Source: the human T2T-CHM13v2.0 reference genome, Homo sapiens. Taken from it: DNA of 64,000 nt. Location of the stretch: assembly GCF_009914755.1 (NCBI RefSeq), contig NC_060946.1; one strand, written 5' to 3'. The position numbers and the translations under genes are program-made. Within the stretch, counting starts at the first letter, position 1. Every line of letters starts with the position of its first letter. The notes below the pieces were generated by a model, which worked only from the letters and a program-made list of their open reading frames with translations, was not told the DNA's origin and did not search any database. Shown piece after piece: positions 57,069 through 58,105 of this stretch.

Positions 57069-57082
57069 GATCTCTGCACTGA
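56762..57082 (+). CDS. DUX4L: Truncated DUX4-like ORF (106 aa): single homeodomain, stop supplied by inverted beta satellite; expression unproven
   Basis: [77 protein letters not shown]...[14 protein letters not shown]; native ATG in gcgATGg context, no internal stop. Confidence 0.45.
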
Positions 57083-58105
57083 TCGCTGAGGTGATGTAAA
57101 ATTCTCTAGGCTTTGCCTACACTGGGATTTATGACATATCTCTGCACTGACCACCCAGGAGATGAAACTCTTATTTAGGCTCTGCCTACAGGGGCTTTGT
57201 GACATATTTCTGTACTGATCACGGATGGACAATGGCACAGAGAGGGCAGGGGGCTCCCTTGCACGTAAGCGGGGTGCGCAATGAGTGCAGGTCTAGCCAC
57301 TCAGCCCAGGGGAGGACACATTTTCCGAGGGTAGGGGATGAAGGTGGGGAGGGTGCCGTCCGAAGGTTTCGAGAGGGCCATCGCGGGGACATTGGGACAT
57401 GTCACAAAGCTGCCATACACAGAGGCTAGACAAGAGTCCCATCAACTGGGTGTCCTTCTAGGCAGAGCTTAGAGAAGAGTCACATCTCCTGGGTGATCAG
57501 TGCAGAGATAAGTCACAATGCCCCCATAGGCAGAGCCTAGACAAGAGTTACATAACCCGGGTGATCCGTGCAGAGTGATGTCACAACGCCCTCTGTAGGC
57601 AGAGACTAGAAAAGAGTTATATCACCTGGGTGATCAGTGCAGAGATAAGTCACAATGGCCCCGTAGGCAGAGCCTAGACAAGAGTTACATAAGCCGGGTG
57701 ATCCGTGCAGAGTGATATCACAACGCCCTCTGTAGGCCCACAGGCACTGCCTCCTTCATGGAGAGAGGGCCTGGAACACTCAAGACTCCCACGGAGGTTC
57801 AGTTCCACACTCCACTCCACCCTCCCAGGCCGATTTCTCCCTGTTGAAGACGAGTGGGAGCCCAGAGAGCGGCTTCCAGTTCCCGCGGGATTCCTGGAGA
57901 GGTCCGGAGAGCCAGCCCCTCAAACGCACTCCCCTCACCCCTTCCCCCTCGCGCCCTTCCTCTTCGTCTCTCAGGCCCCACCACCACCATCACCACACCC
58001 TCCCCCCCCACTCCACCTCCCCCCGCGGCAGGCACCATGCCGATCTTCCACCCTTCCCTGCATGTTTCCGGGTGCCCGCAGAGCTCCCGGAGCAAACAGG
58101 CAGCA
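57069..58105. other. Complex inversion junction built from ~9 templated fragments
   Basis: beta(-) 57069-57222; pLAM(-) 57219-57299; intron-2(-) 57297-57353; DUX start(-) 57346-57389; beta(-) 57385-57400; beta(+) 57397-57452; beta(+) 57451-57737; hhspm3-like(+) 57736-58033; unit 5' end(-) 58030-58105. Confidence 0.85.

What the first reader, a model, noticed from the sequence alone, without database searches (positions are those of the whole stretch)
57069..58105. Array inversion point is a ~1 kb mosaic of ~9 templated fragments joined by microhomology
Seen: the + array breaks inside DUX copy F and the - array breaks 76 bp into a unit. Between them lie 16-300 bp pieces of every component of the composite, in both orientations. 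Joins show shared bases: (g)atc ~57070, tcac 57219-57222, cca 57297-57299, ggggaggg 57346-57353, gggga 57385-57389, the palindrome gacatgtc 57396-57403 (strand flip), tg 57451, gc ~57736 and aggc 58030-58033. Established: serial short templated inserts with 2-8 bp microhomology are the signature of FoSTeS/MMBIR or polymerase-theta-mediated joining. Inference: one replication-based event inverted this DUX4L/beta-satellite array.
Basis: partly seen in the sequence, partly recalled or inferred. Interest (0 to 1): 0.8.

Follow-up and report, generated by a model that had tools for sequence, protein, structure and literature searches.

The report
Old patchwork junction in satellite array
Where a beta-satellite/D4Z4-like repeat array on the short arm of chromosome 22 flips orientation, about 1 kb is stitched from eight short copies of nearby repeat sequence, and the same patchwork also sits on chromosome 21, so it is an old, copied scar of error-prone DNA replication and not a recent local event.

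Summary
Between the + array, which ends inside a DUX4-like unit at 57069-57072, and the - array, which starts 76 bp into a unit at 58030, lie eight pieces of 15-297 bp. They are beta-satellite and D4Z4-like block fragments in both orientations.

All nine joins share 1-8 bp with both donors, mean 3.4 bp against 0.7 bp for random joins in the same sequence. No join carries orphan bases.

- **Not unique.** chr21 (about 6.304 Mb) carries the whole mosaic with every join, at 4.9% non-CpG divergence. chr22 at 6.187 Mb carries the two right-hand joins inside a different mosaic. This rules out an assembly artefact and a recent in-situ event.
- **Conflicting characters.** Features shared among the three copies cannot fit one tree, so at least one later recombination occurred. 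Whether all nine joins arose together cannot be settled.
- **Concerted left half.** Three pieces come from one contiguous 450-bp natural satellite stretch, two inverted and one direct, and two joins use the same template base. All inverted pieces are collinear.

Serial microhomology-mediated template switching (MMBIR/FoSTeS-like) is the best explanation. Strand switches in these arrays are already published as a class. The base-level anatomy appears to be new.

The parts
55975..57072 (+). Last unit of the + array. A D4Z4-like block truncated at unit position 1103-1106, inside a DUX4-like ORF about 30 residues after its first homeodomain.
   Evidence: 88.7% to unit 1-1106; Pfam Homeodomain, E 1.2e-15
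57070..57222 (-). P1: inverted beta-satellite, 2.25 monomers. Join J1 shares ATC with the truncated block.
   Evidence: 138/157 to window 45170-45014
57219..57299 (-). P2: inverted block piece, unit 2724 to 2643. Join J2 shares TCAC. It is not the natural block/satellite boundary.
   Evidence: 90-93% at many loci; natural boundary differs
57297..57353 (-). P3: inverted block piece, unit about 2458 to 2389. Join J3 shares CCA. It lies 181 bp downstream of P2 in natural donors.
   Evidence: 79-85%
57346..57389 (-). P4: inverted block piece, unit 829 to 786. Join J4 lies in a G-rich run, GGGGAGGG.
   Evidence: 41/44 to B1, 40/44 to B4
57386..57400 (-). P5: 15-bp inverted beta-satellite variant. 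In natural arrays it lies directly between the sources of P1 and P7. Join J5a shares GGGA.
57399..57452 (+). P6: direct beta-satellite variant monomer. The strand flip J5b sits at an 8-bp palindrome and shares AT.
   Evidence: 91% at about 30 loci
57451..57737 (+). P7: direct beta-satellite, 4.2 monomers (2.2 in the chr21 and second chr22 copies). Join J6 shares TG.
57737..58033 (+). P8: direct block piece, unit 265 to 561. Join J7 shares 1 bp.
   Evidence: first 54 bp 100% identical to three natural copies
58030..58105 (-). Start of the - array: unit 76 to 1, then natural inverted satellite from 58106 to 62333. Join J8 shares AGGC and is the strand flip present in all three copies.

Best explanation
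The 1-kb stretch is an ancient compound breakpoint in a beta-satellite/LSau (D4Z4-like) composite array.

**How it formed (inferred).** A growing DNA end repeatedly let go of its template and re-annealed a few bases away or a few kb away on either strand. Each re-annealing was primed by 1-8 bp of microhomology and copied 15-300 bp before the next switch. This is MMBIR/FoSTeS-type serial template switching.

**The path, in unit coordinates:**
- forward to 1106;
- flip to the reverse strand of a nearby satellite stretch;
- forward skips along the reverse strand (2724-2643, 2458-2389, 829-786, then 15 bp of satellite);
- flip back at a palindrome;
- satellite, then 265-561;
- flip again at 76, then on into the reverse array.

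**What happened afterwards.**
- The junction arose early in the life of the array.
- It was then carried to or exchanged between chr22 and chr21.
- It recombined with a sister junction on chr22.

**Shown here:**
- the pieces, their sources and their orientations;
- the excess microhomology;
- the shared template stretch;
- the paralogous copies.

**Inferred:** the replicative mechanism, and that at least joins J1-J6 formed in one event.
For: 1. **Microhomology.** Nine of nine joins share bases with both donors and none has orphan bases. The mean is 3.4 bp against a null of 0.66-0.77 bp, and six or more of nine joins with at least 3 bp has P = 5e-6.
2. **One template stretch.** The reverse complement of P1, the reverse complement of P5, and P7 are contiguous or overlapping in natural satellite. 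This holds at window 45014-45462, at window 33278-33729, and in the chr22:6.188 Mb copy. The same template boundary is used by two joins (J1, J5b), and P5 overlaps P7 by 6 template bases in opposite orientation. The 15-mer is rare, with 8 exact copies in 174 kb.
3. **Collinear pieces.** All five inverted pieces are collinear on a reverse-strand composite, so they read as forward skips. The three flips are short-range fold-backs.
4. **Duplicated sequence.** Pieces 786-829, 265-561 and 1-76 repeat sequence already present in the adjacent truncated unit 1-1106.
5. **Age and reality.** The chr21 copy has every join. Its non-CpG divergence of 85/1736 is spread roughly evenly over the pieces, 2.1-5.3% per piece, so all joins predate that split.
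6. **Changes shared by both copies.** They are 8/148 in P2-P4 against 22/1088 in the flanking unit. This is a weak excess, of the kind expected from error-prone synthesis.
Against: - **No direct evidence of replication.** Microhomology joins also arise by alt-EJ.
- **One event or several is open.** The chr22:6.187 Mb copy has J7 and J8 with a natural left flank. The chr21 and 6.187 Mb copies share an extra piece (reverse 742-675) and a shorter P7 that the window lacks. No tree fits, and the data allow both a single origin and a two-step origin.
- **Weak individual items.** J4 lies in a G-run, where chance matching is easier. P3 is only 79-85% identical to donors. J7 shares 1 bp.
- **Small-number caveat.** The mutation excess in P2-P4 rests on 8 sites and on a consensus of 15 units.
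- **Search limits.** The genome searches scored only 40 candidates each, so further copies cannot be excluded.
Confidence: 0.6

Rival explanations
1. Stepwise history. A simple fold-back strand switch (satellite | 265-561 | reverse 76) arose first. Later, independent small deletions, slippage events and a second rearrangement added the left-hand joins one or a few at a time.
For: - The chr22:6.187 Mb copy has only J7 and J8, with a natural satellite stretch to its left.
- Other strand switches nearby are simple two-piece joins with 0-3 bp overlap.
- The same-strand joins J2, J3 and J4 look like microhomology deletions. J3 lies between imperfect direct repeats.
Against: - A crossover inside P7 with a natural stretch would also give the 6.187 Mb structure, so that copy is not decisive.
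- One template boundary is reused by J1 and J5b.
- The 6-base inverted overlap of P5 with P7 is hard to obtain from independent events.
- Piece 829-786 lies outside any segment that a simple inversion broken at 1106 would carry.
- Divergence from the chr21 copy shows no clear step along the mosaic, 2.1-5.3% per piece.
Confidence: 0.2
2. Breakage and re-ligation. One or two composite units were shattered and the fragments joined by alternative end joining or polymerase theta, with most fragments lost. This would be a chromothripsis-like event.
For: - Some breakpoints nearly abut breakpoints of other junctions in the region. Examples are 829 here against 825 at chr22:6.187 Mb, 2458 here against 2450 at chr22:6.2116 Mb, and 302/303 within the 6.187 Mb mosaic.
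- The 15-bp inverted copy of sequence at the landing site resembles a polymerase-theta snap-back insert.
Against: - Sequence is gained, not only lost. The same unit positions occur twice in opposite orientation.
- All joins have microhomology and none is blunt or filled.
- The count of near-coincident breakpoints is my own rough tally: about 7 pairs within 8 bp, against about 3.4 expected from about 35 breakpoints. No tool computed this and it is not significant.
Confidence: 0.1
3. Assembly artefact. The mosaic is a mis-join of reads from + and - arrays.
For: The region is highly repetitive, and no reads could be examined here.
Against: An independent copy on chr21 has the same nine joins at about 94-95% identity, and a third locus has two of them. 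A mis-assembly would not reproduce identical joins in diverged paralogues.
Confidence: 0.02

Closest known systems
MMBIR / FoSTeS complex genomic rearrangements (Hastings et al. 2009, PMC2621351, seen as search listing and abstract only; Lee, Carvalho and Lupski 2007, recalled)
   Same: - Clustered joins with 1-8 bp microhomology.
- Short templated inserts from nearby sequence in direct and inverted orientation.
- Duplicated segments.
- No orphan bases.
   Different: - It is fixed in the germ line, old, and embedded in a satellite array.
- It was afterwards copied between chromosomes.
- Origin in a single generation cannot be shown.
- The templates are repeats, so exact donors cannot be named.
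Inversion breakpoints (strand switches) in beta-satellite arrays of chr1 and the acrocentrics (Altemose et al. preprint 10.1101/2021.07.12.452052, passages read)
   Same: This is one such strand switch in a beta-composite (beta-satellite + LSau) array on an acrocentric short arm. That paper counts over 200 breakpoints in these arrays and in the HSat3B5 array together.
   Different: The passages I read give counts and maps, not base-level junction anatomy or mechanism. Its supplements were not examined.
LSAU-BETA composite repeat (Hoyt et al. preprint 10.1101/2021.07.12.451456, one passage read)
   Same: - 68-bp satellite interspersed with D4Z4/LSau units that overlap DUX4-like genes.
- Units in this array are 85-90% alike, within the 80-95% reported for arrays near centromeres.
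   Different: The passage read describes the repeat family, not its rearrangement junctions.
Polymerase-theta-mediated end joining with templated (snap-back) insertions (features recalled)
   Same: The 15-bp piece P5 is an inverted copy of the sequence at the next landing site and overlaps it by 6 bases. Microhomology at the joins is 2-4 bp.
   Different: Seven of the eight pieces are 44-297 bp, and some come from kilobases away. That is beyond the usual size and range of such inserts as I recall them.
Fold-back inversions / inverted duplications
   Same: Each of the three flips returns to the opposite strand within about 0.15-1.3 kb of unit coordinates. The neighbouring junction at chr22:6183041 is a plain fold-back, 1103 forward to 1267 reverse.
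   Different: Here the fold-backs are chained with same-strand skips. The arms are not recent mirror copies: the best match of the right arm to the left is 90.8%.

Membership tests
MMBIR/FoSTeS-type complex rearrangement | Two or more clustered breakpoint joins | tested here: met
   Nine joins within 1037 bp
MMBIR/FoSTeS-type complex rearrangement | Microhomology at joins beyond chance | tested here: met
   Mean 3.4 bp against 0.7 bp; P = 5e-6 for at least 6 of 9 joins with at least 3 bp
MMBIR/FoSTeS-type complex rearrangement | Inserted pieces templated from nearby sequence, direct or inverted | tested here: met
   All eight pieces match composite-unit sequence. P1, P5 and P7 come from one 450-bp stretch
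MMBIR/FoSTeS-type complex rearrangement | Copy-number gain of templated segments | tested here: inconclusive
   Unit positions 786-829, 265-561 and 1-76 occur again beside unit 1-1106. In a tandem array they could come from other units that were then lost.
MMBIR/FoSTeS-type complex rearrangement | Extra point changes near joins from error-prone synthesis | tested here: inconclusive
   Changes shared by both copies are 8/148 in P2-P4 against 22/1088 in the flanking unit. The numbers are small.
MMBIR/FoSTeS-type complex rearrangement | All joins formed in one cell cycle | not testable with these tools
   The three copies conflict in shared characters. Outgroup assemblies are needed.
Polymerase-theta templated-insertion joining | Inserts short (tens of bp, recalled) and copied from within about 100 bp of the break | tested here: not met
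   Only P5 (15 bp) fits. The other pieces are 44-297 bp.
NAHR between inverted repeats | Extended homology (hundreds of bp) spanning each strand flip | tested here: not met
   The flips share 2-4 bp only. The forward continuation at J8 matches at 56/88.
Chromothripsis-type shattering with end joining | Blunt or filled joins, and loss without gain | tested here: not met
   No blunt or filled join. Sequence occurs in both orientations.
Beta-satellite / LSau (D4Z4-like) composite array | 68-bp satellite monomers interspersed with GC-rich units carrying a DUX4-like homeobox ORF | tested here: met
   TRF period 68. 2.77-kb units at 63-68% GC. Homeodomain E 1.2e-15, first homeodomain only tested.

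The most novel reading that the evidence does not exclude
The strand switches of this acrocentric beta-composite array are fossils of one burst of replication-based, chromoanasynthesis-like rearrangement that struck soon after the array amplified.

- The burst produced several linked mosaics: this one, the one at chr22:6.187 Mb, the fold-back at 6.183 Mb, and the join at 6.2116 Mb that chr21 also carries.
- Breakpoints recur at the same few bases of the D4Z4-like unit (1103-1106; 822-829; 2450-2458), which would mark replication-fork barriers inside the DUX4-like sequence.
- On this reading, the window junction and the 6.187 Mb junction, inverted and 54 kb apart, are reciprocal products of a crossover inside their shared 650-bp core. 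That crossover would amount to a later 54-kb inversion on chr22.
Probability: 0.15. Interest if true: 0.6.

Novelty: new member of a known kind. Interest (0 to 1): 0.4.

Why it matters
Complete human genomes revealed hundreds of strand switches inside satellite arrays, but how they arise has been left open at base level in the texts I could search. This junction is a readable example. It shows that at least some switches were made by microhomology-primed template switching and not by recombination between inverted repeats. It also shows that they can be as old as the array and then spread between acrocentric chromosomes.

It also gives a discrete, datable marker. Nine specific joins can be used to trace exchange between chr21 and chr22 short arms and to look for the junction in ape genomes. 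There is no sign of any gene-level or clinical consequence.

Tried and rejected
- **Genome letters.** Other candidate loci, for example on chr14 and chr1, could therefore not be fetched for alignment.
- **A withdrawn inference.** I first took the chr22:6.187 Mb copy as proof of a two-step origin, because its similarity to the chr21 copy ends exactly at join J6. I withdrew this. Natural satellite stretches are 95-96% like P7, so a crossover anywhere in P7 would give the same picture.
- **Paralogy of the two truncated units.** I tested whether the truncated unit at chr22:6181940-6183041, which breaks at 1103, is a paralogue of the truncated unit here, which breaks at 1103-1106. The tree of 21 units is a star. 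Only the window and chr21 units pair (100/99), so common origin is neither shown nor excluded.
- **Three-copy phylogeny.** It was uninformative. Over the 291-site unit piece the pairwise differences are 21, 20 and 19, and over 348 sites in all the derived states shared by two copies are CL 1, WC 0 and WL 0.
- **Breakpoint clustering.** A rough hand tally across junctions is about 7 near-coincident pairs against about 3.4 expected, which is not significant.
- **A recent palindrome** is rejected. The right arm matches the left at no more than 90.8%.
- **Natural boundary.** The natural unit/satellite boundary as the source of P1+P2 is rejected by direct alignment.

Full report
**Setting.** The window is a composite array. 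It has 68-bp beta-satellite monomers (TRF) interrupted by GC-rich units of about 2.77 kb at 4657-7424, about 14571-17322, about 24409-27168 and about 48175-50936. These units are 85-90% identical to one another. I use unit coordinates 1-2768, taken from 4657-7424. The unit carries a DUX4-like ORF. Translating 56750-57073 gives a Pfam Homeodomain (E 1.2e-15). Published text describes such arrays as beta-composite or LSAU-BETA repeats on acrocentric short arms (passages read).

**The observation.** AT skew flips once, near 58 kb, and k-mer orientation confirms a + array up to 57.07 kb and a - array from 58.03 kb. The last + unit stops at unit position 1103-1106 (window 57069-57072), about 30 residues after the first homeodomain. 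From 58030 the sequence is unit 76 to 1 in reverse (93/101) and runs on into natural reverse satellite. The forward continuation matches at only 56/88.

Between these two points, sensitive blastn on both strands resolves eight pieces:
- P1, 57070-57222: reverse satellite.
- P2, 57219-57299: reverse, unit 2724-2643.
- P3, 57297-57353: reverse, unit about 2458-2389.
- P4, 57346-57389: reverse, unit 829-786.
- P5, 57386-57400: reverse satellite 15-mer.
- P6, 57399-57452: forward satellite variant.
- P7, 57451-57737: forward satellite.
- P8, 57737-58033: forward, unit 265-561.

Whole-genome probes give precise boundaries. Natural copies match only one side of each join, for example 100% from base 57737 onward and 98% from 58030 onward. 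The natural unit/satellite boundary is not the source of P1+P2.

**Microhomology.** I compared the mosaic with the consensus of up to 30 natural donors extended across each join. The shared bases are ATC, TCAC, CCA, GGGGAGGG (5-8 depending on donor, in a G-run), GGGA, AT, TG, C and AGGC. No join has unassigned bases. Random joins drawn from the same window, 20,000 per class, share 0.66-0.77 bp on average. Six or more of nine joins with at least 3 bp has P = 5e-6.

**Not unique.** A search of the window's own genome shows the full mosaic on chr21 at about 6,303,971-6,304,902, reverse strand. A global alignment shows every join conserved. There are two differences: a 137-bp (two-monomer) length difference in P7, and a divergence after window 58087. 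After that point chr21 carries an extra reverse piece, unit 742-675, before satellite resumes.

Join-spanning probes gave the following full-length hits, out of 40 scored candidates each:
- Left joins: the window and chr21 only.
- J7 and J8: the window, chr21 and chr22:6,187,408-6,187,803.

First-look candidates numbered 463-1075, so these counts are lower bounds. The third locus is itself a mosaic of at least six unit pieces. It shares the extra piece and 235 bp of following satellite with chr21, over 736 bp at 93.9%.

**Age.**
- Window against chr21 non-CpG divergence is 85/1736 (4.9%). By segment it is 5.3%, 5.3%, 2.1% and 4.5%. All joins therefore predate that split.
- The tree of the first 1103 bp of 21 units is a star with end branches of about 0.08-0.10. 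Only the window and chr21 truncated units pair (100/99; shared branch 0.02, own branches 0.05).
- Against a consensus of 15 natural units, the two copies share 2.0% derived changes and each adds about 4%. Natural units sit 7-9% from consensus.
- The junction thus formed in roughly the first third of the array's history.
- A divergence near 5% at non-CpG sites suggests many millions of years. I could not calibrate this, because no ape sequence was available.

**Mechanism.** The most telling result is. In natural satellite (window 45014-45462 and 33278-33729) and in the chr22:6.188 Mb copy, the following lie side by side:
- the reverse complement of P1;
- the reverse complement of P5;
- P7.

The P1 source ends where the P5 source begins, and P7 starts 9 bases into the P5 source. 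So three pieces come from one stretch of about 450 bp, two inverted and one direct. One template boundary serves two joins (J1 and J5b), and 6 template bases are copied in both orientations. The 15-mer is rare, with 8 exact copies in 174 kb, each in the orientation of its array.

The five reverse pieces are also collinear on a reverse-strand composite. In natural donors P3 lies 181 bp beyond P2. This back-and-forth, forward-skipping copying of local sequence with microhomology at every join is what serial template switching predicts. Independent deletions or a two-break inversion do not yield it easily. For example, piece 829-786 lies outside any segment that an inversion broken at 1106 would carry.

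Homology-driven inversion is excluded, because the flips share only 2-4 bp. Polymerase-theta joining fits the 15-bp piece but not the 44-297 bp pieces.

**One event or several.** The three copies conflict. The window and chr21 share J1-J6. chr21 and chr22:6.187 Mb share the extra piece and the shorter P7. Substitutions give a trichotomy: pairwise differences of 21, 20 and 19 over the 291-site unit piece, and one derived state shared by two copies over 348 sites in all. At least one recombination inside the shared core of about 650 bp is therefore needed.

I first read the natural left flank of the 6.187 Mb copy as proof that J7 and J8 are older. I withdrew that, because a crossover inside P7 with a natural stretch gives the same structure. 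The left cluster J1-J6 looks concerted. Whether J7 and J8 belong to the same event is open. The left half has two flips that cancel, and J8 is the flip common to all copies.

**Context.** The 174 kb of chr22 examined holds several more strand switches and truncated units:
- a plain fold-back at 6,183,041, which breaks at unit 1103;
- a two-piece join at 6,211,603 with a 3-bp overlap, also present on chr21.

Altemose et al. (preprint, passages read) already report over 200 inversion breakpoints in these beta-satellite arrays and the HSat3B5 array together, so the class is known. Four searches of the paper library returned no paper whose title or abstract describes base-level junction structure of such switches. 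Only the listings were seen. Supplements of the T2T papers were not examined and may hold breakpoint tables.

**Verdict.** This is a real, well-resolved and statistically supported template-switch mosaic. It is old and duplicated, and not a unique in-situ event. It is a new instance of a known kind of rearrangement within a known class of satellite strand switches.

Noticed in passing
L013 (chr22:6180001-6190000), chr22:6186885-6187756: A second multi-piece mosaic. It reads reverse satellite, then unit 202-302 forward, 371-303 reverse, short satellite, 871-825 reverse, forward satellite, 671-746 forward, 13-79 forward, and 561-265 reverse. It shares the last two joins with the window junction in reverse orientation. 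One of its pieces starts at unit 825, beside the 829 end of piece P4 here.
   Followed up: partly
L013, chr22:6181940-6184315: A plain fold-back. Unit 1-1103 forward is joined to unit 1267-1 reverse. It breaks within 3 bp of the unit position where the window's + array breaks (1103-1106). The tree could not show whether the two truncated units are paralogues.
   Followed up: partly
L016/L015 (chr22:6211287-6213167) and L020 (chr21:6293762-6295654): Another strand switch shared by chr22 and chr21. Unit 2765-2450 reverse is joined to 1194-2765 forward with a 3-bp overlap. It lies 78 kb from the mosaic on chr22 but 9 kb from it on chr21.
   Followed up: partly
L011-L013, chr22:6161000-6184300: About 21-23 kb with almost no beta-satellite k-mers interrupts the reverse array. 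Its content was not identified.
   Followed up: no
window 22360, 33433, 45168: A rare satellite variant 15-mer and its flanking 450-bp stretch recur about 11-12 kb apart in the + array. This hints at a long-range periodicity of satellite variants that is independent of the GC-rich units.
   Followed up: no
L025, chr14:4322157-4324031: A unit with an internal deletion of positions 823-1523. Its breakpoint at 822 lies close to the 825/829 breakpoints seen on chr22.
   Followed up: no
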